DNA of 63,844 bases from Alphaproteobacteria bacterium (lineage in GTDB: Bacteria > Pseudomonadota > Alphaproteobacteria > Rs-D84 > CACZYB01): NCBI GenBank assembly GCA_051885355.1, contig JBJEXC010000011.1:1-63844 (forward strand). Reading direction: 5' to 3'. This document shows, in pieces, positions 12,938-50,883 of this stretch. Position numbers and translations under genes: made by a program. The first letter of the stretch is position 1, and the number at the start of each line of letters is the position of its first letter. Below the pieces are notes generated by a model. It made no database searches and was not told the origin of the DNA. It was given only the letters and a program-made list of their open reading frames with translations.

Positions 12938-13180
12938 TTATTTCCATTTATCTAAAAGTTCTTTAAAAACAAGTAAAGGATTATAATTTATTACCATAAA
13001 TATTTCTATACATTCCACAATATCAACACGTCTTTCACCATTTTCTATTTTACTTATACAAGATTGAGAACAATTAAGTTTATTTGCAAGTTCACTTTGA
13101 GTTATATTATTTTTCTTTCTAATATCAACTAACATTTTTAGTAAATATTTATAATTATTTGTATATGCAGATTTATTCAT
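12938..13180 (-). CDS. XRE-family HTH transcriptional regulator
   Basis: ITQSELANKLNCSQSCISKIENGER is a classic Cro/C1 HTH. Start at MNKSAYT is supported by an AGGGG Shine-Dalgarno. Confidence 0.7.
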   Translation of the reverse strand: MNKSAYTNNYKYLLKMLVDIRKKNNITQSELANKLNCSQSCISKIENGERRVDIVECIEIFMVINYNPLLVFKELLDKWK

Positions 13181-13332
13181 ATTTTTCCCCTTATTCATTA
13201 AAAACAAATATATTTTATATCCTTTTACAGAATATACCAAATAAGAATAATATTTCCCCTATAATAATTGTAATAGAAATAGAAGTTTAGTCTTGACTTT
13301 AAAAGTAATATATCTTATTTTTACTACAGTTT

Positions 13333-13407
13333 GCTACTGTGGCTCAGTGGTAGAGCGCACCCTTGGTAAGGGTGAGGTCGTGAGTCCGATTCTCACCAGT
13401 AGCACCA
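13333..13407 (+). tRNA. tRNA-Thr (anticodon GGU), CCA encoded
   Basis: Cloverleaf folded by hand: acceptor GCTACTG/CAGTAGC, anticodon arm CACCC-TTGGTAA-GGGTG, T arm GTGAG-TCCGATT-CTCAC. The T loop reads TCC instead of the usual TTC. Confidence 0.85.
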
Positions 13408-13480: not shown

Positions 13481-13735
13481 TTATCTCTGTTCCTCTTCAT
13501 ACATATATTCACAAAAATCACCTAACTCCATATCACTTACTTCCAATATTTTACTAATAGTCCTCATAGATAGCCATCTGCACTTTCCACTCAAATAAAA
13601 TCTTTTACTTTTGTTAAATGCAGTTCCATCTAACCCAGCATTTTTCGCTAATAATGATACAGATATACCATTAATATAGGCTATTTTATCAATAACATTC
13701 CACAAACTCTTATGGTCTTTCTCTAAATTTTGCAT
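13481..13735 (-). CDS. Phage-repressor-like HTH protein
   Basis: ISVSLLAKNAGLDGTAFNKSKRF...RWLSMRTISKIL resembles the short repressor-type HTH family common in Alphaproteobacteria. Confidence 0.6.
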   Translation of the reverse strand: MQNLEKDHKSLWNVIDKIAYINGISVSLLAKNAGLDGTAFNKSKRFYLSGKCRWLSMRTISKILEVSDMELGDFCEYMYEEEQR

Positions 13736-13954
13736 AATAAACTCCTTTTGTTTCTAATAACCCCTCCCTTAAGAAGATATTCTTAATTTAAAATCATATT
13801 AGAATTACAGCAAGTAGAATAAATTCCTCTATCTCAACACAGCCGTTTGCTTAGAATTTTTTAAGTTAAAATAAAAAAACTCAAAAAACAGAAGAAGAAA
13901 TTTCGTTGCTTTTTTGTTTTCTCCGATTCGTTTTTGTGTAGAAAATAAGATTAA

Positions 13955-14230
13955 AAATTCGGTGATGAAGAAGGAAAAACTTTATACGATATAGCCATAA
14001 AAAAAGACGGTGTATTAGATACAAAGTTCGTTAATAAAAAGAATGTTGAAAATTATTTGGCTAATGCTTTGAAGATGGACAATGTCAATAGTTCTGGCAC
14101 TCCATTCACGTCGGGGGATAAAGCGAACTATGCAACCCTTTCGCTACTCAATGATAATATAGCAAATATGTATATAAATGTCAAACCTAATTATCAGCAG
14201 GCAAGGTCTTTGGCTTCAGTTATAATTTGA
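13955..14230 (+). pseudogene. 5'-truncated coding remnant ending inside the degenerate terminal CRISPR repeat
   Basis: A 92-codon stop-free frame in AT-rich DNA with no usable start until its second half. The frame ends at a TGA formed by the degenerate first repeat. Confidence 0.3.
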
Positions 14231-16169
14231 CTTAAATTTCCTATATGCTATAATTCCAGGTGGTGAGACACGCCCCAAAACGCAGTTGCGATTTGACTTA
14301 AATTTCCTATATGCTATAATAGTTATTATTACGAAAGTGTTTCAAATGATGTTGCGATTTGACTTAAATTTCCTATATGCTATAATTTTTGCTCTTGTGT
14401 TTCTTTTGCAATTGTAGTTGCGATTTGACTTAAATTTCCTATATGCTATAATTATATCGAATCCAGATTCTTTTGCATCTTTGTTGCGATTTGACTTAAA
14501 TTTCCTATATGCTATAATAACTGTTTCATAACGCTTTCATACAACAATGTTGCGATTTGACTTAAATTTCCTATATGCTATAATTTTTTTTATAAAAAAT
14601 TTAGGTATGCTTTCGTTGCGATTTGACTTAAATTTCCTATATGCTATAATAGAAAATATTTATTTAACAGATAACAATAGGTTGCGATTTGACTTAAATT
14701 TCCTATATGCTATAATCCCGTTATTCAGAATGCTATAGGCAAAGCAGTTGCGATTTGACTTAAATTTCCTATATGCTATAATTATCCTACTCTTGAAACT
14801 TTTGATGATTTTGTTGCGATTTGACTTAAATTTCCTATATGCTATAATTTTCAGATTGATTATCAAAATTTAATGCTTGTTGCGATTTGACTTAAATTTC
14901 CTATATGCTATAATAGTTTAACACATCTTGACTTGGATGTTATTGTTGCGATTTGACTTAAATTTCCTATATGCTATAATATAAAAGAAATTTTAAATAA
15001 AAAATATCATGTTGCGATTTGACTTAAATTTCCTATATGCTATAATTTCATAGCTCCCAACATAATTGATTTTTTTGTTGCGATTTGACTTAAATTTCCT
15101 ATATGCTATAATTTAAATAAAGAAATATACGTACAAGGGAACGTTGCGATTTGACTTAAATTTCCTATATGCTATAATAGTACATCGCCATTCATTAAAC
15201 CTTTCTTCGTTGCGATTTGACTTAAATTTCCTATATGCTATAATCTTTTTATTGAATTATATTTATCTTGTTTAGTTGCGATTTGACTTAAATTTCCTAT
15301 ATGCTATAATCAAATCACTCTCTAAGTCTGCATAGAGTTTGTTGCGATTTGACTTAAATTTCCTATATGCTATAATGAAATCAATACAAAAACTGGTGAA
15401 ATAACAGTTGCGATTTGACTTAAATTTCCTATATGCTATAATATATAATCAGAATTTTTATTATAACTTTTTGTTGCGATTTGACTTAAATTTCCTATAT
15501 GCTATAATGTTTACGGGAAAGAATTCTGGGACAAACTAGTTGCGATTTGACTTAAATTTCCTATATGCTATAATCATCCCAGGGGAAGTATGGAAGATAA
15601 AAATAGTTGCGATTTGACTTAAATTTCCTATATGCTATAATCATTATCAAATATATTTAATGTTCGCGATTGTTGCGATTTGACTTAAATTTCCTATATG
15701 CTATAATTCTACACCCCAAACTAAATTATCAACATTAGTTGCGATTTGACTTAAATTTCCTATATGCTATAATTATTATCATTGAAGAAGTTAAGAAAAT
15801 TGAGTTGCGATTTGACTTAAATTTCCTATATGCTATAATATTGGAAGTTCTGGCTACTCCGCACAGATTGTTGCGATTTGACTTAAATTTCCTATATGCT
15901 ATAATTTATTATATAAATGTAATCCTTGATTCTTTGTTGCGATTTGACTTAAATTTCCTATATGCTATAATATATCTAGGAGAACAACCAATATACCAAA
16001 GGTTGCGATTTGACTTAAATTTCCTATATGCTATAATTTTGTGGTTGGTTTAATTTTTCTTTGTTTTGTTGCGATTTGACTTAAATTTCCTATATGCTAT
16101 AATAGTTGTAGCACTCATAATCTACGATAAGATGTTGCGATTTGACTTAAATTTCCTATATGCTATAAT
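14219..16169 (+). CRISPR. CRISPR array: 30 repeats of 36 bp (GTTGCGATTTGACTTAAATTTCCTATATGCTATAAT), 29 spacers (28 of 30 nt, one of 31 nt)
   Basis: All 30 repeat starts were located by hand at 66-bp periodicity, with one +1 shift at spacer 21. The first repeat (14219) is degenerate at positions 4-6 (GTTATA...). Each repeat contains TTGACT-N16-TGcTATAAT. Confidence 0.97.
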
Positions 16170-16175
16170 ATCACA

Positions 16176-16206
16176 GAAAAATCCTCAGAATTTCTGGGGA
16201 TTTTTT
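16176..16206. terminator. Bidirectional rho-independent terminator between the array and cas2
   Basis: Stem AATCCTCAG / CTGGGGATT (9 bp, one G-U) with an A run upstream and T6 downstream. Confidence 0.7.
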
Positions 16207-16303
16207 AATTATTTCATAATAAAAATTTAACAAATTTATACTAATTTTTGATTCGTTTTTTTTATTTTTCTTTTACCGATTCGCAATATTATTATCCACA
16301 TTT

Positions 16304-16648
16304 TTAAAACAACATAAATTGCTCTGGCGATTTTGGGACTTCTCTATAATCTAAATCTCCAATTAAAATTATATCTTTAAATTGCTTATCCGTAAAAAAC
16401 AAAATAGTTATATTACCACTTGTTGGCGCATTTTGTTTTATTGCCGAAACATATTTAGGACACAAATCTTTTGCCCCTATAAATTTAGTATAAACAGAAT
16501 ATTGGTTCATAGAAAATCCCATATCCAACAAATATTCCCTAAATTTATGAGCATAATGCCTATTCTCAGGAGTATCCGTTGGCAAATCAAACATAACCAT
16601 CATCCACATAATTTTTCTCCCATCTATTATATTACTCATAATAATCAC
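16304..16648 (-). CDS. cas2: CRISPR-associated endoribonuclease Cas2
   Basis: MVMFDLPTDT beta1 motif, about 110 aa, start overlapping the cas1 stop. Confidence 0.85.
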   Translation of the reverse strand: MIIMSNIIDGRKIMWMMVMFDLPTDTPENRHYAHKFREYLLDMGFSMNQYSVYTKFIGAKDLCPKYVSAIKQNAPTSGNITILFFTDKQFKDIILIGDLDYREVPKSPEQFMLF

Positions 16649-17555
16649 CTAAATAACTATCTATAAGTTTGTCAGTAATAGAAAGTGAAAAAGTTTTATT
16701 AAGACAAGAATTTGCAAAACTTCTTACATAATTTTGAGTAACAATAGGAAGTTCAGAAATACCATCCAAAGTTTTTATATCTTTATGTAAGATATTAATT
16801 ATTAAAAATTTTTTGCTTTCTGCTTCCAAAGATTTTTCAACATCATCAATTCCATTAAAAATCTTATAAACAAGCAAATCTACAACAGGACGAAATGGTT
16901 CAATCAAATCATCAACTAAACAAAAGGGATTCAAATAACTGTGATGATTAACACCAAATGATGGATTTAAACCAGTCGCAACAACAAACCTAGCAATCAC
17001 CCCTCGAATAATAGCATACCCATAATTAAGAAAACTATTTATACCAGATTTATTTGTATCCCTAACAAAATTATCCCCAAACAAAGCAGAAAAATAATAC
17101 CGTGCGGCCACTGCCTCTTGATTAGTAGTATCTCCAGATAAAACTTGCGTTGCAATATAATCAAGTTTAGTATCATTCTTCAAAAATTTTAAAACTTTTG
17201 ATTGATTTTTTATCTTCTCTTGAACTATTTTTTGCCATAAATTTTTCTGCAAAGGTTTTGATATAGAAATTTGCATTTGTTGAATACGAGTTTGTTGATA
17301 ATTACCATTTATACCAAGCAATAATCCCGAAGGATTATAATTTTTACCACATATAACAAGTGGGATATTTTCTTCGATCAATCTTTGTAATAAAGAATGC
17401 GTATAAATGACTTGATTCGCAGAAACAATTATTCCTCCCAATGAATCAAAAGGGAGATCTTTTACAATCTCCCCTTCTTCCTTTATCCTCAAAAATCCCC
17501 TATATGTTGTTAATGTTTTACCATCATCGTTTATCTCTATAATATTATTTAACAT
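16632..17555 (-). CDS. cas1: CRISPR-associated endonuclease Cas1 (type II)
   Basis: LNYGYAIIRG and HHS...LVDDLIEPFRP motifs; 307 aa. Confidence 0.9.
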   Translation of the reverse strand: MLNNIIEINDDGKTLTTYRGFLRIKEEGEIVKDLPFDSLGGIIVSANQVIYTHSLLQRLIEENIPLVICGKNYNPSGLLLGINGNYQQTRIQQMQISISKPLQKNLWQKIVQEKIKNQSKVLKFLKNDTKLDYIATQVLSGDTTNQEAVAARYYFSALFGDNFVRDTNKSGINSFLNYGYAIIRGVIARFVVATGLNPSFGVNHHSYLNPFCLVDDLIEPFRPVVDLLVYKIFNGIDDVEKSLEAESKKFLIINILHKDIKTLDGISELPIVTQNYVRSFANSCLNKTFSLSITDKLIDSYLGDYYE

Positions 17556-17570
17556 TTTATACCTCTTTGG

Positions 17571-20500
17571 TTAGTTATTATTTATCTCCTTTCCCAAAGC
17601 ATTTAAATAAACCTTTTTTATATTATATTGTTGAGCTACTGATATTCCTTTCTTTGTAGAAAAATTACATTGCCAAGTTTTTTTATCTCCATTATCTTCC
17701 TGTGCAATATGTAACGGACGTAAATAAAGTGTATCTCCTGTCATTTTTTTCACTTTAAAATAAAAATCCATACTCTCTTTGTTTGTATTAAGGAAACGAT
17801 TATCTATAAAATTTTTAAATTTTTTAAGACTATCACATAAATCTTTATCTTTATTAATATTAACCTTCACAATATCATTTGCTCTAAGTGTCATAATTTT
17901 TTTAGCATTTGGATAAATTTTATTCCATAAAGCATAACCATTTTTATCTTCAAGGTGCTCAAAAACTCTAAATCTATTTAAAATTTCCATTTGCCATTTT
18001 CCATCAACCATATAAATCTGTGCTTCATAATTACCATCACTAGCATACCATTTATAGGCTTTGTCTTTTGTAAATGATTCTTCAAATAACTTTTTTGTTT
18101 TATCAAATTCCTCTTGTGTAATTTTACCATCTAACAATCTTTGTTTACCAATAAAATACTTATCAAATAATTCTAAATAGATTTTCTTTTGCTCTTTATT
18201 TCTAAATACCGGTATCATAGAAGATATATTACTTATTTCAGTTTCAACCTTACCTTTTGAACGATTAAATTTTTTAAAAGTCACATTATCATCTTTTGTT
18301 AAATTATTATTTTCTATACTGTATGCTGTCCCTTTCATAATATTTAAAAAACTTAGATTAGATTTATTTTTCCCTTCCCTTATACCTTTCATAAGATATT
18401 TTACTTTATTAGTTTCTTCCTTATAAAAAATAAACATATTTCTAAATCTTTCTTTTAATTCATTCATATCAAAATTTTTATAAGGATTTTCTTTATTTTC
18501 ATTTCTTAATTTTTCAGAAATCAATGATTCTTTCAAAGATTTTCTAAATCTTGCCTCATTTATATTCTTATCACCTTTAATACCTTCATAATATTGTCTA
18601 TCAACTTCTTTTCTAAAATCCTCACTATTTGGATATTGAACCAAAGCAGTATCTAAACAAGCACACACTATTGCATCTATTGCATGATGATAATGAATTG
18701 CCCTATCCTTTTGCTTACTGGATAAATTATAGAAAAGTTGATGACAATTTTTCTTTATTTCATCAGAAGATAAATTCTCCGTTTCCACTTTTACAAATTG
18801 AAAGTTATGAATATCAAAAGCGTTTCTTTTTATTATAGGAGTTTTAACATCTTTTTCATTTTTATTTAATAACTCAACATCACCTATTTCATTAGATTGA
18901 TTTATAACAAACTTTTCAAATTCATCAACTAAGTTATTATATTTTGTTGGATTTCCATCAATTAAATCATCAATAATTTCAGCAACTTTACTATTAAATT
19001 CTTTCTGCATATCCTTTTTATCATATTCTGGATGTAAAAAAAGAATTACATCTTTTAATTTATCACTTAAAAAATCTTGTTGCCATTTTTGAGGAATCCA
19101 TAAATCAAAATCCCGTGGCACAGCCCTTAATAACTGCCAAGCATTTCTATATAAATCAGTAGCGATACCAGTATTAACAGTATTATGCTTCCAATCATTA
19201 GAAACATAATTTAAATACTGATTTGTAAGTTTTGTAATGTATCTTGTATCATTTATATCTCTTGCATTTAAACCGCCGGTTAATTTATTATAAATATCCA
19301 TTGCATTAGGTAAAAAACGCCACCATGTATCAAAAAGTTTATATTCTATCCTCTTTTTATTATTTCCTTTTAGCGCAGATTTATCTCCTTTTTTATCTTT
19401 TCTATAAAAATCAATAAACCCTGCTCTTTTTTGCAATAACTTCAATTCTTCTGGTTCATTTGTTTTCCATTCACTTGGTGTTCTATCACATTTTTCTCCA
19501 TTATACTTACTTTTTGTTATTATCTTATTTGCATAACTGTCATCACCACTTTTTGAAAATGGAAGAATATGTTCTATTTCATATTTAGGCGAAAAAAGTT
19601 CTGATAGAGGAATTGGATGAACTTCATCTATATTATAAATATCAATTCTTTTCGTTTCATCGTGTGGGCAAAGATTTCTCCATACCTTATATTTTTCAAT
19701 ATTATAATCACTAGGATTTTCTCCTTGAGAAATAATAGCCCTTCTTGCTTCATCATTTATTTTTTTATTATCAGATTGTATCACAGCAATTTTTGCTTTT
19801 GTTTTATCACCTTGTGCCATATCACGAGCGACTTCAATTCCAATAACTTCTGGATTACCATACAAAGCAATAATTTCATTTACAACTATACGAAGTTGGT
19901 TAAGTGCAATATGAACAACAGGATTTGTAATTCTGCCATTTCTGCCAAGATATTCTTTAAATTTTTCTGTATAATATGGAAGATTTGTTAAAGGTATCCA
20001 CCCTTCCTTTTGGTATTCCTTTAAAGAATGATTTATTTCTATTTTCTCCAATGCTTCATGATATTTTAAATTATCATTTTCCATAAGTGGTATAATTTTT
20101 TCCAATATATCCTTTGATAATTTGCAATATCCCTTTGGTAATTTATTAAGAATTTCATTTACCTTTATATTATCAAATTCTATATTATATTGTTCCTTTA
20201 AACTCTTTACTCTATCCTTTGCAAACTTACTATAATCAGTTAAAATTTCAATAATATCAAACTTATCAGTATCACTAAAACTGTTCCAATTTTTAATTTC
20301 ACTATAAAGAATATTATTTGTTTCAGAACACTTTATTCCTTCCCTTAACAAAGGTTTATAAACATCTTCATACTCTGCTTTTCCCTCTTCATTTTTACCT
20401 TTATACTTATATTTTTTAGTTGCTTCAAAGTTAAAAAGTGTTTCAACATCCAAGCCTAAAAACTCTTTAATAGATAAATAAGAAACGACATTATCCTTTG

Positions 20501-21434
20501 ATTTTAATTTTGTATTACAATTATAAAGAGCATCTATAAGTTTTCTTCTATCTTCATCAGATAACTTTTTATTTTCAGGATAAATAATTTCAAGATTGCG
20601 AACTTCCGATACAATTCTGAATTTTTGAAAAAGAATTTGTGCTAGTTGTATATTAGGCTTATCATCAAAAAGACATTTTGCAGGTTCTTGCTTTTTTAAA
20701 TTATTTTGATCTAATATAATATCAGTTATTTCCTTTTCCATCTCTTCTGTAAGTTCTGGGAAAAATTTTCTCTGTATTTCAAACATAGATTTTATTTCTT
20801 GTTTGTAAATATCACGACTTGGAAACTCATCTTTTTTCAATTTACCATTATCATCAATCGCCCCTCTAAACCTTACTTTTTCACCATTTTTAATCATTTT
20901 CCATTGATATTCACCAAGAGTTTTACAATCATTATTTTTTATTTCCTCAATTAATTTTTTATGAGCATCTTCCCATTTTGAAGTGTTATCCTCTGATAAA
21001 GATTGAAAACCTCTATGTTGATTTATATGAAATAAAGCCCTTCCTAAAATATAAAGAGGATTATTCAAATTTTGAATCAACTCAGATTCTTTTAAACTAC
21101 CCTTTACACATTCTGCTCTACATTTATAAGGATTTAAAATTTCCAAAGATTTCTGCTCACTTTTATCATTAGGCATAAACCCATAACTTACCAATAAATC
21201 AAAAAGTTTTTTACGACGCACCAAATATCTGTCTTGATTTACTCTTGCACCTTTTGCTTCACTTCTTACAGAAGCAAGGGATTTTGGTTTAGTATCTTGG
21301 GTTAAACCATTATTAAAAATTCGAACCCCAAAATCAATCAAATTAAGAGGAATAATCTTATCATTTTCTCTTTTTATTTCAACAACAGCCCAACCAATAG
21401 AATTTGTTCCAATATCAATACCAAGTTTATACAT
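17571..21434 (-). CDS. cas9: Cas9, type II-C gene context, 1287 aa
   Basis: RuvC-I LGIDIGTNSIGWAVV, RuvC-II IGIEVARD, HNH YEIEHILPFSKSGDDSYANKIIT...N, RuvC-III HYHHAIDAIV. No csn2 or cas4 is nearby. Confidence 0.95.
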   Translation of the reverse strand: MYKLGIDIGTNSIGWAVVEIKRENDKIIPLNLIDFGVRIFNNGLTQDTKPKSLASVRSEAKGARVNQDRYLVRRKKLFDLLVSYGFMPNDKSEQKSLEILNPYKCRAECVKGSLKESELIQNLNNPLYILGRALFHINQHRGFQSLSEDNTSKWEDAHKKLIEEIKNNDCKTLGEYQWKMIKNGEKVRFRGAIDDNGKLKKDEFPSRDIYKQEIKSMFEIQRKFFPELTEEMEKEITDIILDQNNLKKQEPAKCLFDDKPNIQLAQILFQKFRIVSEVRNLEIIYPENKKLSDEDRRKLIDALYNCNTKLKSKDNVVSYLSIKEFLGLDVETLFNFEATKKYKYKGKNEEGKAEYEDVYKPLLREGIKCSETNNILYSEIKNWNSFSDTDKFDIIEILTDYSKFAKDRVKSLKEQYNIEFDNIKVNEILNKLPKGYCKLSKDILEKIIPLMENDNLKYHEALEKIEINHSLKEYQKEGWIPLTNLPYYTEKFKEYLGRNGRITNPVVHIALNQLRIVVNEIIALYGNPEVIGIEVARDMAQGDKTKAKIAVIQSDNKKINDEARRAIISQGENPSDYNIEKYKVWRNLCPHDETKRIDIYNIDEVHPIPLSELFSPKYEIEHILPFSKSGDDSYANKIITKSKYNGEKCDRTPSEWKTNEPEELKLLQKRAGFIDFYRKDKKGDKSALKGNNKKRIEYKLFDTWWRFLPNAMDIYNKLTGGLNARDINDTRYITKLTNQYLNYVSNDWKHNTVNTGIATDLYRNAWQLLRAVPRDFDLWIPQKWQQDFLSDKLKDVILFLHPEYDKKDMQKEFNSKVAEIIDDLIDGNPTKYNNLVDEFEKFVINQSNEIGDVELLNKNEKDVKTPIIKRNAFDIHNFQFVKVETENLSSDEIKKNCHQLFYNLSSKQKDRAIHYHHAIDAIVCACLDTALVQYPNSEDFRKEVDRQYYEGIKGDKNINEARFRKSLKESLISEKLRNENKENPYKNFDMNELKERFRNMFIFYKEETNKVKYLMKGIREGKNKSNLSFLNIMKGTAYSIENNNLTKDDNVTFKKFNRSKGKVETEISNISSMIPVFRNKEQKKIYLELFDKYFIGKQRLLDGKITQEEFDKTKKLFEESFTKDKAYKWYASDGNYEAQIYMVDGKWQMEILNRFRVFEHLEDKNGYALWNKIYPNAKKIMTLRANDIVKVNINKDKDLCDSLKKFKNFIDNRFLNTNKESMDFYFKVKKMTGDTLYLRPLHIAQEDNGDKKTWQCNFSTKKGISVAQQYNIKKVYLNALGKEINNN

Positions 21435-21537
21435 TTTTATACCTTTTTTATTATTTTTAGTTATTCTATAAAATATTATTCAGATACACAATAAAAATTT
21501 TCTTGATTATTAAGAATATTAGAACTACAATAAATCT

Positions 21538-21649
21538 GATTTTGAAACGATAATTATAATATATAGGAAATTTAAGTCTATCGTTAACAAGGAACTATTT
21601 ATAATAGTTACCATCAAAATCAAAAGAGGGTTCAAAACCCTCTTTTTTT
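21538..21649 (+). ncRNA. tracrRNA
   Basis: Anti-repeat ATTATAATATATAGGAAATTTAAGTCTATCG (from 21553) matches the reverse complement of the repeat: blocks of 6 and 18 perfect bp plus a bulge. It is followed by hairpin AACTATT-TATA-ATAGTT and terminator AGAGGGTT-CAA-AACCCTCT-T7. Promoter TTGATT (21503-21508) -N17- TACAAT (21526-21531). Confidence 0.8.
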
Positions 21650-21663
21650 ATTACAAATAAACT

Positions 21664-50643: not shown

Positions 50644-50883
50644 TTTAACCTCCATAATGCTTTTCCCTTTAATTATATTACGATTTTGTGTAAAGTCAAT
50701 ATTTTATTTGAAATTTCTAAACAATTTTATGTATATACACACTTTTGTTTAAAAAATTTATAATAATTTTAAAATAACAGATAATATTTCTTATACCACA
50801 TTTTCTCTTAAAAGTCAAGAACAAAATACAAACATTATTTTCCCCTTGCCTTATATAATCGGAGTTAGTATAATTTTCCCATT

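What the first reader, a model, noticed from the sequence alone, without database searches (positions are those of the whole stretch)
14219..16169. Every CRISPR repeat contains a near-consensus sigma70 promoter (TTGACT-N16-TGcTATAAT)
In the 36-bp repeat, positions 9-14 are TTGACT and positions 31-36 are TATAAT, preceded by an extended -10 TG at positions 28-29. Each of the 30 repeats is therefore a full promoter firing into the downstream spacer on the plus strand.

- **Precedent.** Repeat-embedded promoters, mainly extended -10 boxes, are known for the type II-C loci of Neisseria meningitidis and Campylobacter jejuni. There, crRNA 5' ends arise by transcription initiation rather than processing.
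- **What differs here.** Both the -35 and -10 elements are close to consensus.
- **Expected consequence.** A start about 7 nt after the -10 would give guides of about 23-24 nt from 30-nt spacers.
Basis: partly seen in the sequence, partly recalled or inferred. Interest (0 to 1): 0.65.

Follow-up and report, generated by a model that had tools for sequence, protein, structure and literature searches.

The report
Type II-C CRISPR repeats carrying promoters
This is an ordinary type II-C CRISPR-Cas9 locus from an uncultured gut alphaproteobacterium in which every repeat carries a promoter for the next guide RNA, a feature already known for this CRISPR subtype, here with an unusually complete promoter sequence.

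Summary
The array at 14219-16169 has 30 repeats of 36 bp, 29 of them identical. Every repeat contains TTGACT-N16-TGcTATAAT on the + strand.

The locus is a complete type II-C system. cas9, cas1 and cas2 lie on the - strand and the array converges on them. A tracrRNA gene on the + strand upstream of cas9 fixes the crRNA sense as +, the same sense as the promoters.

The host is a low-GC gut alphaproteobacterium. Its three tRNA genes have TTGACT/TTGCAT-N16-17-TATAAT-like promoters, so its RNA polymerase should recognise the repeat motif.

Relatives support the model in three ways:
- Repeats keep both hexamers in 9 of 9 clade loci, although the Cas proteins are only about 40-55% identical.
- The tracrRNA anti-repeat shares the RNA-pairing constraint but loses the -7 T in 6 of 9 loci and the intact -35 in 6 of 9.
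- New spacers enter at the cas-proximal end, and a terminator follows the last repeat.

Repeat-embedded promoters are the textbook feature of type II-C (Neisseria meningitidis, Campylobacter jejuni, and a survey of 58 species). The full -35 is less discussed, but 13 of the 52 II-C repeats I sampled have one. No RNA data exist for this organism. This is a new member of a known kind.

The parts
14219..16169 (+). CRISPR array: 30 repeats of 36 bp and 29 spacers (28 of 30 nt, one of 31 nt). The crRNA sense is the + strand, convergent with the cas operon.
14219..14254 (+). First (extra, oldest) repeat, GTTATAATTTGACT.... It is mutated at positions 4-6 in the guide-handle part, while the promoter hexamers are intact. 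The mutations weaken predicted tracrRNA pairing from -33.2 to -28.9 kcal/mol.
   Evidence: compare PMC12080349
14293..14320 (+). Example promoter inside repeat 2: -35 TTGACT at 14293-14298, TG at 14312-14313, -10 TATAAT at 14315-14320. The same layout recurs every 66 bp (one step of 67 bp) in all 30 repeats. The predicted start is at about nt 5-7 of the following spacer.
   Evidence: start position inferred from PMC3656092 and PMC12477760
16176..16206 (.). Hairpin terminator 7 nt after the last repeat (14 pairs, T-run on both strands). It should stop array transcripts before they run antisense into cas2-cas1-cas9, and it also ends the cas operon. A hairpin with a T-run follows the last repeat at 6-10 nt in L001-L003 and within 0-4 nt in L097, L099, L101 and L102. 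In the latter group I saw the T-run only on the crRNA-sense side.
16170..16303 (.). Leader: the cas-proximal flank of the last repeat, the inferred site of spacer acquisition.
   Evidence: L099 vs L100 polarity; PMC12080349
16304..16648 (-). cas2 (114 aa)
   Evidence: TIGR01573, 2.4e-19
16632..17555 (-). cas1, type II NMENI subtype (307 aa)
   Evidence: TIGR03639, 6.3e-77
17571..21434 (-). cas9 (1287 aa). Its distant relatives are type II-C Cas9 proteins of Alphaproteobacteria.
21503..21531 (+). tracrRNA promoter, TTGATT-N17-TACAAT. A -35/-10-like pair lies at the same place in the relatives: TTGAT(T/A) in L001-L003 and TTGACA in L013, L097, L099, L101 and L102.
21538..21653 (+). tracrRNA (5' end inferred). 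The anti-repeat at 21553-21588 pairs with repeat positions 1-36 apart from a small internal loop at positions 9-10. It is followed by AAGG and a stem-loop, then a terminator at 21622-21646 with a T7 run.

Best explanation
The region is the CRISPR array of a chromosomal type II-C CRISPR-Cas9 system in an uncultured, low-GC gut alphaproteobacterium.

**How it most likely works**
- Each 36-bp repeat ends in an extended -10 element (TGcTATAAT) and also holds a -35 element (TTGACT) 16 bp upstream.
- The housekeeping sigma70 RNA polymerase starts transcription about 5-7 nt into the spacer that follows each repeat. The 5' end of each crRNA is therefore made by initiation, not by cutting.
- The transcript runs into the next repeat. 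There it pairs with the tracrRNA encoded upstream of cas9.
- RNase III, or simply Cas9 binding, defines the 3' end. The result is a guide of about 23-26 nt plus a repeat-derived handle.

**The array ends**
- Spacers are added at the cas-proximal (last) repeat, so no leader promoter can serve the array.
- The hairpin terminator right after the last repeat stops array transcripts from running antisense into the cas genes.
- The first repeat has mutations in its handle that weaken formation of a useless 'extraneous' crRNA, while its promoter stays intact.

**Shown here:** the anatomy, the strand logic, the host promoter type, conservation in relatives and the acquisition polarity.

**Inferred:** the actual start sites, promoter strength and the contribution of the -35.
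For: **Motif.** It is present in 30 of 30 repeats and is rare elsewhere in the window.

**System type.** The cas9-cas1(NMENI)-cas2 set has no fourth gene.

**crRNA sense.** A + strand tracrRNA has an anti-repeat, a nexus-like AAGG, a terminator and its own promoter, and it is conserved in 8 relatives. The predicted repeat:anti-repeat duplex is -33 to -47 kcal/mol. This sets the crRNA sense equal to the promoter sense.

**Host.**
- The nearest named Lon relatives are Alphaproteobacteria.
- All three tRNA genes in the window have promoters of the same type: TTGACT-17-TATTTT, TTGCAT-16-TATAAT and TTGACT-16-TATTAT.
- A TTGACT-16-TATAAT site lies 44 bp upstream of an ORF start at 50655.

**Clade comparison.**
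- Nine loci have Cas9/Cas1/Cas2 only 39-79/47-85/50-93% identical to the window, yet their repeats are 32-36/36 identical.
- Variation falls at positions 7-8, 15-17 and 35. TTGACT is kept in 9 of 9, and TATAAT or TATAGT in 9 of 9.

**Paralogue control.** The reverse complement of the tracrRNA anti-repeat shares the RNA-pairing constraint. It keeps TTGACT in only 3 of 9 loci and the -7 T in only 3 of 9.

**Wider II-C survey.** Across 52 II-C repeats, T31, A32 and T36 are present in 51, 50 and 48. In many loci the local repeat-to-anti-repeat alignment ends around repeat position 32.

**Acquisition polarity.** L099 and L100 have identical Cas9 and share their 5 cas-distal spacers. L100 has 7 more at the cas-proximal end.

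**Terminator.** One lies directly after the last repeat in all relatives examined.

**Literature.**
- Start sites inside spacers were mapped in C. jejuni (PMC3656092) and N. meningitidis (PMC5965381, PMC12477760).
- The gnTAnaaT motif at the 3' end of II-C repeats was reported for 58 species (PMC4607530).
- Mutated extra repeats were described in PMC12080349.
Against: - **No RNA evidence.** No RNA run holding this sequence could be found.
- **Alternative cause for 3'-end conservation.** The repeat's 3' end is also its leader-proximal end, which the Cas1-Cas2 integrase may recognise.
- **Alternative cause for the TTG of the -35.** It coincides with the internal loop of the repeat:anti-repeat duplex. 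Cas9 binding may conserve it.
- **Weak -35 in high-GC relatives.** Their II-C repeats carry only TGGACC or TTGGCC there, so a -35 is not a general requirement.
- **No protospacer found.** There is therefore no independent PAM-side check of orientation.
Confidence: 0.8

Rival explanations
1. Only the extended -10 (TGcTATAAT) acts as the promoter, as in N. meningitidis and C. jejuni. The TTGACT at positions 9-14 is kept because it forms part of the crRNA handle and internal loop that Cas9 and the tracrRNA recognise, and it adds little to transcription.
For: - The two characterised II-C systems work without a -35 (PMC3656092; Cje repeat).
- Positions 9-10 are unpaired in the predicted duplex, and the same region is mismatched in most II-C anti-repeats.
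- G11, A12 and C13 are common across II-C repeats even where the hexamer is a poor -35, such as TGGACC.
Against: - The hexamer is an exact TTGACT in 9 of 9 clade repeats, while its immediate neighbours (positions 8, 15, 16) vary freely.
- TTGACT is the very -35 used by two of the host's three tRNA promoters.
- The spacing is 16 nt.
- The anti-repeat tolerates C, A or a gap opposite positions 9-10, so RNA pairing does not demand TT.
Confidence: 0.35
2. The array is transcribed as one precursor from a promoter outside it (for example read-through from the tRNA-Thr gene at 13333) and is matured by RNase III and trimming. The promoter look-alike in the repeat is incidental to an AT-rich repeat.
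For: - This is the rule in type II-A systems.
- The tRNA-Thr promoter (13293) points towards the array, and the scan found no terminator on the + strand between 13408 and 14218.
Against: - The leader lies at the 3' end of the crRNA sense.
- No promoter-like site scoring 9/12 or better appears among the + strand sites listed between the tRNA and the first repeat (36 weaker sites were not shown).
- The chance of an 11/12 site with TG in a 36-mer is about 1e-4.
- The -12T, -11A and -7T positions are nearly invariant across 52 II-C repeats although many anti-repeat alignments stop short of them.
- Internal start sites have been demonstrated experimentally in this subtype.
Confidence: 0.07
3. The invariant 3' end of the repeat is conserved as the recognition site for Cas1-Cas2 integration at the leader-repeat junction. 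Promoter activity is absent or a by-product.
For: - The TATAAT end abuts the leader in the last repeat.
- Integrases of other type II systems are known to read leader-proximal repeat bases (established knowledge, not tested here).
Against: - This does not explain why the sequence matches the sigma70 extended -10 consensus so exactly.
- It does not explain why the -10 sits at the right distance from a -35.
- It does not explain why the same consensus positions are the conserved ones across distant II-C systems.
- Promoter activity of this element has been shown in relatives (PMC3656092).
Confidence: 0.08
4. The array is read on the - strand, in the same direction as cas9-cas1-cas2, so the + strand motif is irrelevant.
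For: The array lies directly downstream of cas2.
Against: - A terminator lies between cas2 and the array.
- The tracrRNA's promoter, anti-repeat and terminator make sense only on the + strand.
- The repeat reads GTTG...AAT in the crRNA sense, like the other II-C repeats.
- PMC4607530 and PMC7038990 report convergent transcription for II-C arrays.
Confidence: 0.03

Closest known systems
Neisseria meningitidis type II-C CRISPR-Cas9 (processing-independent crRNAs; Zhang et al. 2013 as summarised in PMC5965381; PMC12477760)
   Same: - cas9-cas1-cas2 gene set only.
- 36-bp repeats ending in TGCTAnAAT.
- Array convergent with the cas genes.
- Promoters inside repeats and 5' ends made by initiation inside spacers.
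- Acquisition at the cas-proximal repeat.
   Different: - As I recall it (not re-checked in a paper here), the Neisseria repeat has no -35-like hexamer and its -10 is TACAAT. Here the repeat has TTGACT-N16 plus TATAAT.
- Cas9 here is 1287 aa and only about 30% identical to typical II-C Cas9 proteins.
- The host is a low-GC gut alphaproteobacterium.
- Nothing here has been tested experimentally.
Campylobacter jejuni minimal type II-C system (Dugar et al. 2013, PMC3656092; Pearson et al. 2015, PMC4607530)
   Same: - AT-rich 36-bp repeat ending in an extended -10 (GGTAAAAT there).
- One promoter per repeat, with the start at about nt 5 of each spacer.
- RNase III and tracrRNA define the 3' end.
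- The first transcribed repeat is degenerate.
   Different: - The C. jejuni repeat lacks a -35 (best match 2/6).
- Its tracrRNA lies next to the array, not upstream of cas9.
- C. jejuni uses an upstream terminator against extraneous crRNA (PMC12080349). Here the first repeat is mutated instead.
Clostridium cellulolyticum H10 type II-C (PMC7038990)
   Same: - The array is transcribed opposite to the cas genes.
- The last nine repeat bases resemble an extended -10.
- crRNAs carry 23-26 nt of spacer.
   Different: Internal initiation there was proposed rather than proven, and no -35 was noted.

Membership tests
Type II-C CRISPR-Cas | Effector Cas9 plus Cas1 and Cas2 only, with no Csn2 or Cas4 | tested here: met
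   Cas9 matches TIGR01865 (7.7e-117), Cas1 matches TIGR03639 NMENI (6.3e-77) and Cas2 matches TIGR01573. No other ORF of 80 aa or more lies between cas2 and the array or between cas9 and the tracrRNA.
Type II-C CRISPR-Cas | tracrRNA with an anti-repeat complementary to the repeat, followed by stem-loops and a terminator | tested here: met
   The + strand region 21538-21653 has a duplex energy of -33.2 kcal/mol with the repeat and a terminator at 21622-21646. It is conserved, with its own promoter, in 8 relatives.
Type II-C arrays with repeat-embedded promoters | Repeat ends in a sigma70 -10 or extended -10 (gnTAnaaT / TGnTAnnnT) oriented into the next spacer | tested here: met
   TGCTATAAT occupies positions 28-36 of all 30 repeats. 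T31, A32 and T36 are present in 51, 50 and 48 of 52 sampled II-C repeats.
Type II-C arrays with repeat-embedded promoters | crRNA sense convergent with the cas operon, degenerate repeat at the first transcribed (cas-distal) end, and new spacers at the cas-proximal end | tested here: met
   The strand layout is shown. The first repeat is mutated at positions 4-6. L100 has 7 extra cas-proximal spacers relative to L099, which has an identical Cas9.
Type II-C arrays with repeat-embedded promoters | Host RNA polymerase recognises this promoter type | tested here: met
   All three tRNA genes have TTGACT/TTGCAT-N16-17-TAT(A/T)(A/T)T promoters. The host is an alphaproteobacterium by its Lon relatives. 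This is indirect evidence, from sequence only.
Type II-C arrays with repeat-embedded promoters | Primary (5'-triphosphate) transcript starts inside each spacer | not testable with these tools
   No RNA run holds this sequence. The only run found is a fecal DNA metagenome with a distant strain.
Type II-C arrays with repeat-embedded promoters | crRNA function independent of RNase III processing | not testable with these tools
   This needs genetics or a heterologous system.

The most novel reading that the evidence does not exclude
In this clade of gut and rumen alphaproteobacterial II-C systems, the repeat may be a dual-coded element. It would be a complete -35/extended -10 sigma70 promoter superimposed on the Cas9 guide handle, with both hexamers under selection of their own rather than explained by RNA pairing. 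That double constraint would explain why the repeat stays 32-33/36 identical while Cas9, Cas1 and Cas2 drift to about 40-55% identity. It would also make crRNA output -35-dependent, and therefore stronger or more tunable than in the extended-10-only Neisseria and Campylobacter systems.
Probability: 0.3. Interest if true: 0.45.

Novelty: new member of a known kind. Interest (0 to 1): 0.25.

Why it matters
The finding adds no new principle. Promoters inside type II-C repeats were shown in 2013 and are now treated as a defining trait of the subtype.

**What it does offer**
- A clean natural example with a full consensus promoter, from an uncultured gut lineage whose Cas9 (1287 aa) is far from characterised orthologues.
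- Guide-RNA design information for anyone wishing to use this Cas9: the crRNA sense, the tracrRNA sequence and a likely guide length of 23-26 nt.
- A simple in-silico control, comparing the repeat with its own anti-repeat, that separates promoter constraint from RNA-pairing constraint.

Tried and rejected
**Non-sigma70 host.** I tested whether the host might be a Bacteroidetes-type organism whose polymerase ignores TTGACA/TATAAT. This was rejected. Lon relatives are alphaproteobacterial, LptE is in synteny, and the tRNA promoters are canonical.

**Direct RNA evidence.** Three run searches found no RNA run. Laying the one fecal DNA run on the locus gave only two spurious 22-24-nt pieces.

**Protospacers and PAM, to confirm orientation independently.**
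- BLAST of the whole array against 50,697 phage records gave only chance-level hits (E = 0.6).
- Six exact scans of IMG/VR with the PAM-proximal (3') or central part of a spacer found nothing.
- No self-targets with up to 4 mismatches exist in the window or in any fetched locus.

**Relatives by Cas9 peptide patterns.** The first scan of genome contigs found none. An alignment-based scan then gave 80 loci.

**Unbiased repeat scan.** A metagenome scan with the promoter positions left free returned mostly chance single matches and only two true arrays.

**Sequence upstream of the array.** I tested whether 13940-14218 is a remnant of the MuF_C gene seen next to the repeat in L003. There was no similarity and no Pfam hit.

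**Rfam.** At gathering threshold it reports only three tRNAs in the window.

**Zhang et al. 2013.** The paper is not held in the library. Its content is cited only through reviews.
Full report
**1. What is in the sequence**

The stretch 14219-16169 is a CRISPR array. A search with the 36-mer GTTGCGATTTGACTTAAATTTCCTATATGCTATAAT finds 30 copies on the + strand and nowhere else. Twenty-nine are identical. The first (14219-14254) reads GTTATAAT... and differs only at positions 4-6.

The 29 spacers are 30 nt long, except one of 31 nt.

In each repeat, positions 9-14 are TTGACT, positions 28-29 are TG and positions 31-36 are TATAAT, with a 16-nt spacer. The consensus scan scores every copy 11/12 with an extended-10 TG.

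Outside the array the 64-kb window holds only ten sites of 11/12 or better on both strands, and one of them has TG. A random 36-mer would carry such a site with a probability of about 1e-4 to 1e-3.

**2. The surrounding system and the sense of the crRNA**

Three genes lie immediately to the right, on the - strand:
- cas2 (16304-16648)
- cas1 of the type II NMENI subtype (16632-17555)
- cas9 of 1287 aa (17571-21434)

There is no csn2 or cas4, so this is the type II-C gene set.

The best match to the reverse complement of the repeat outside the array lies upstream of cas9, at about 21540. On the + strand this region reads as follows:
- TTGATT-N17-TACAAT (21503-21531), a promoter.
- ATTATAATATATAGGAAATTTAAGTCTATCGTTAAC (21553-21588), the anti-repeat.
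- AAGG and a small stem-loop.
- A strong hairpin (21622-21646) followed by seven T.

That is the canonical build of a tracrRNA, and it makes sense only on the + strand. Co-folding pairs it with nearly the whole repeat, at -33.2 kcal/mol, leaving a small internal loop at repeat positions 9-10.

The crRNA is therefore + strand RNA, the same sense as the promoter motif, and it converges on the cas operon.

A 14-pair hairpin with T-runs on both sides (16176-16206) starts 7 nt after the last repeat.

**3. Could the host polymerase use this motif?**

The Cas9 has no close named relative. The best hit is 78% identical, from a fecal 'bacterium' MAG, and named hits at about 30% are II-C Cas9 proteins of Alphaproteobacteria.

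The neighbouring Lon protease is 75% identical to proteins of 'Alphaproteobacteria bacterium' MAGs and 55-59% identical to Rickettsiales and Rhodospirillaceae. Syntenic relatives carry lptE. The only sequencing run with related DNA is a feces metagenome.

The host is thus an uncultured, low-GC (about 30%) gut alphaproteobacterium.

Its own strong promoters are of the canonical type. All three tRNA genes in the window are preceded by such sites at the right distance:
- TTGACT-17-TATTTT
- TTGCAT-16-TATAAT
- TTGACT-16-TATTAT

A TTGACT-16-TATAAT site also sits 44 bp ahead of an ORF start. The repeat motif is the kind of site this organism uses.

**4. Relatives**

I collected loci through the Cas9 protein.

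*Close clade, repeats.* Nine loci have Cas9/Cas1/Cas2 that are 39-79/47-85/50-93% identical to the window. Their repeats differ from the window's only at positions 7-8, 15-17 and 35. Position 8 takes all four bases. TTGACT is intact in all nine consensus repeats, and the -10 is TATAAT or TATAGT.

*Close clade, tracrRNA.* All have a tracrRNA in the same place with its own promoter.

*Close clade, terminator.* All have a hairpin with a T-run after the last repeat: 6-10 nt after it in L001-L003, and within 0-4 nt in the clade with about 40% Cas9 identity. In that clade I saw the T-run only on the crRNA-sense side. That argues for transcripts arriving from inside the array.

*Acquisition polarity.* L099 and L100 encode the identical Cas9 and share their five cas-distal spacers. 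L100 has seven more at the cas-proximal end. Spacers therefore enter at the last transcribed repeat, as published for II-C (PMC12080349), and a leader promoter cannot feed the array.

**5. A control for RNA-pairing constraint**

The anti-repeat is a reverse-complement copy of the repeat. It is under the same duplex constraint but has no need to be a promoter in the crRNA sense.

Read as reverse complement, the nine anti-repeats keep TTGACT in only three cases. The others read TAGACT (twice), CTGACT (twice), CTTACC and CCAACT. They keep the essential -7 T in only three cases. The repeats keep both in nine of nine.

In a wider sample of 52 II-C repeats, T31, A32 and T36 are present in 51, 50 and 48. 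In many of these loci the local repeat-to-anti-repeat alignment stops at about position 32.

The -10 is thus conserved for a reason other than tracrRNA pairing.

For the -35 the case is weaker, for three reasons:
- The TTG sits in the internal loop of the duplex, which Cas9 may read.
- High-GC relatives have only TGGACC or TTGGCC there.
- Only 13 of the 52 repeats match TTGACA at 5/6 or better. These come from gut alphaproteobacteria, Treponema, Cloacimonadota, Desulfovibrionaceae and a Rickettsiales MAG.

**6. Most likely mechanism**

- Sigma70 polymerase initiates from every repeat about 5-7 nt into the following spacer.
- The transcript reads into the next repeat and pairs with tracrRNA.
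- Cas9 binds, and RNase III may trim the 3' side. This yields guides of about 23-26 nt.
- The promoter of the 30th repeat meets the terminator almost at once.
- The first repeat keeps its promoter, so it serves spacer 1. Its handle mutations lower the tracrRNA pairing energy from -33.2 to -28.9 kcal/mol. This is the published way of suppressing an 'extraneous' crRNA (PMC12080349, medians -31 vs -26).

The anatomy, polarity and conservation are shown here. Initiation sites, promoter strength and the role of the -35 are inferred.

**7. Comparison with what is known**

- Primary starts inside spacers and an extended -10 at the repeat end were shown by dRNA-seq and primer extension in C. jejuni (PMC3656092).
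- The same was shown in N. meningitidis (summarised in PMC5965381; start at the 6th spacer nt in PMC12477760).
- A survey of 58 II-C species found gnTAnaaT at the repeat 3' end, convergent arrays and a degenerate proximal repeat (PMC4607530).
- Current work states plainly that in II-C each repeat has its own promoter (PMC12080349).

The window's array meets every sequence-level criterion of that class. The two functional criteria, triphosphate ends and RNase III independence, could not be tested.

The papers I read do not discuss a -35 element in the repeat, and the C. jejuni repeat lacks one. My survey shows that a -35 recurs in about a quarter of II-C repeats, so it is a little-noticed variant rather than a peculiarity of this locus.

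**8. What failed**

- No RNA data could be found.
- No protospacers were found in phage records, IMG/VR or the loci in hand. The PAM is therefore unknown.
- Zhang et al. 2013 could not be read directly.

**9. Verdict**

The locus is a new member of a known kind. Interest is modest, at 0.25. It would rise to about 0.45 if the -35 were shown to be used and to be the reason for the extreme conservation of this repeat.

Noticed in passing
window 1-63844: GC skew is strongly negative (about -0.03 to -0.38 in 2-kb windows) along the whole window, whichever strand the genes are on. This is an unusually large strand bias for a bacterial chromosome.
   Followed up: no
L103:6011-6136 vs L102:10764-11746; L003:15281-15316: These look like natural 'array-collapse' alleles. 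L103 keeps only the single degenerate first repeat joined to the leader, while L102, with the identical Cas9, has 15 repeats. L003 has one repeat plus a terminator beside intact cas9-cas1-cas2, with a MuF_C-domain ORF reading into the repeat. They resemble the engineered crRNA-null allele used in N. meningitidis (PMC12477760). Assembly collapse cannot be excluded.
   Followed up: partly
window 21553-21580 (- strand): The reverse strand of the tracrRNA anti-repeat keeps a repeat-like promoter (TAGACT-N16-TATAAT, 10/12) pointing at cas9. A second candidate, TTGTGT-N17-TAGAAT, lies about 30 nt before the cas9 start codon. L001-L003 keep similar elements. Which one drives cas9 is unknown.
   Followed up: partly
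window 14156-14184 (- strand): A near-consensus promoter with an extended -10 (TTGACA-N17-TGtTATATT, 11/12) abuts the first repeat and points away from the array. No convincing gene lies downstream before the small HTH-like ORF at 13481-13735.
   Followed up: no
window 17571-21434: Cas9 is 1287 aa, about 200 aa longer than the II-C average (1077 +/- 49 aa, PMC4607530) and about 100 aa longer than its relatives at roughly 40% identity (1168-1199 aa). The extra segment was not located.
   Followed up: no
window 14219-16169 vs L097, L099, L101, L102: The repeats are 32-33/36 identical between loci whose Cas9, Cas1 and Cas2 are only 39-42%, 47-51% and 50-56% identical. The repeat evolves more slowly than any protein of the system.
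   Followed up: partly
window 14255-14284: The oldest spacer (TCCAGGTGGTGAGACACGCCCCAAAACGCA) is 57% GC, against a mean of 28% for all spacers. This suggests a target from a quite different source.
   Followed up: no
window 12938-13240 and 13481-13735 (- strand): Two small HTH (Xre/Cro-like) ORFs flank the tRNA-Thr gene just left of the array. They may be remnants of an integrated element at the tRNA.
   Followed up: no
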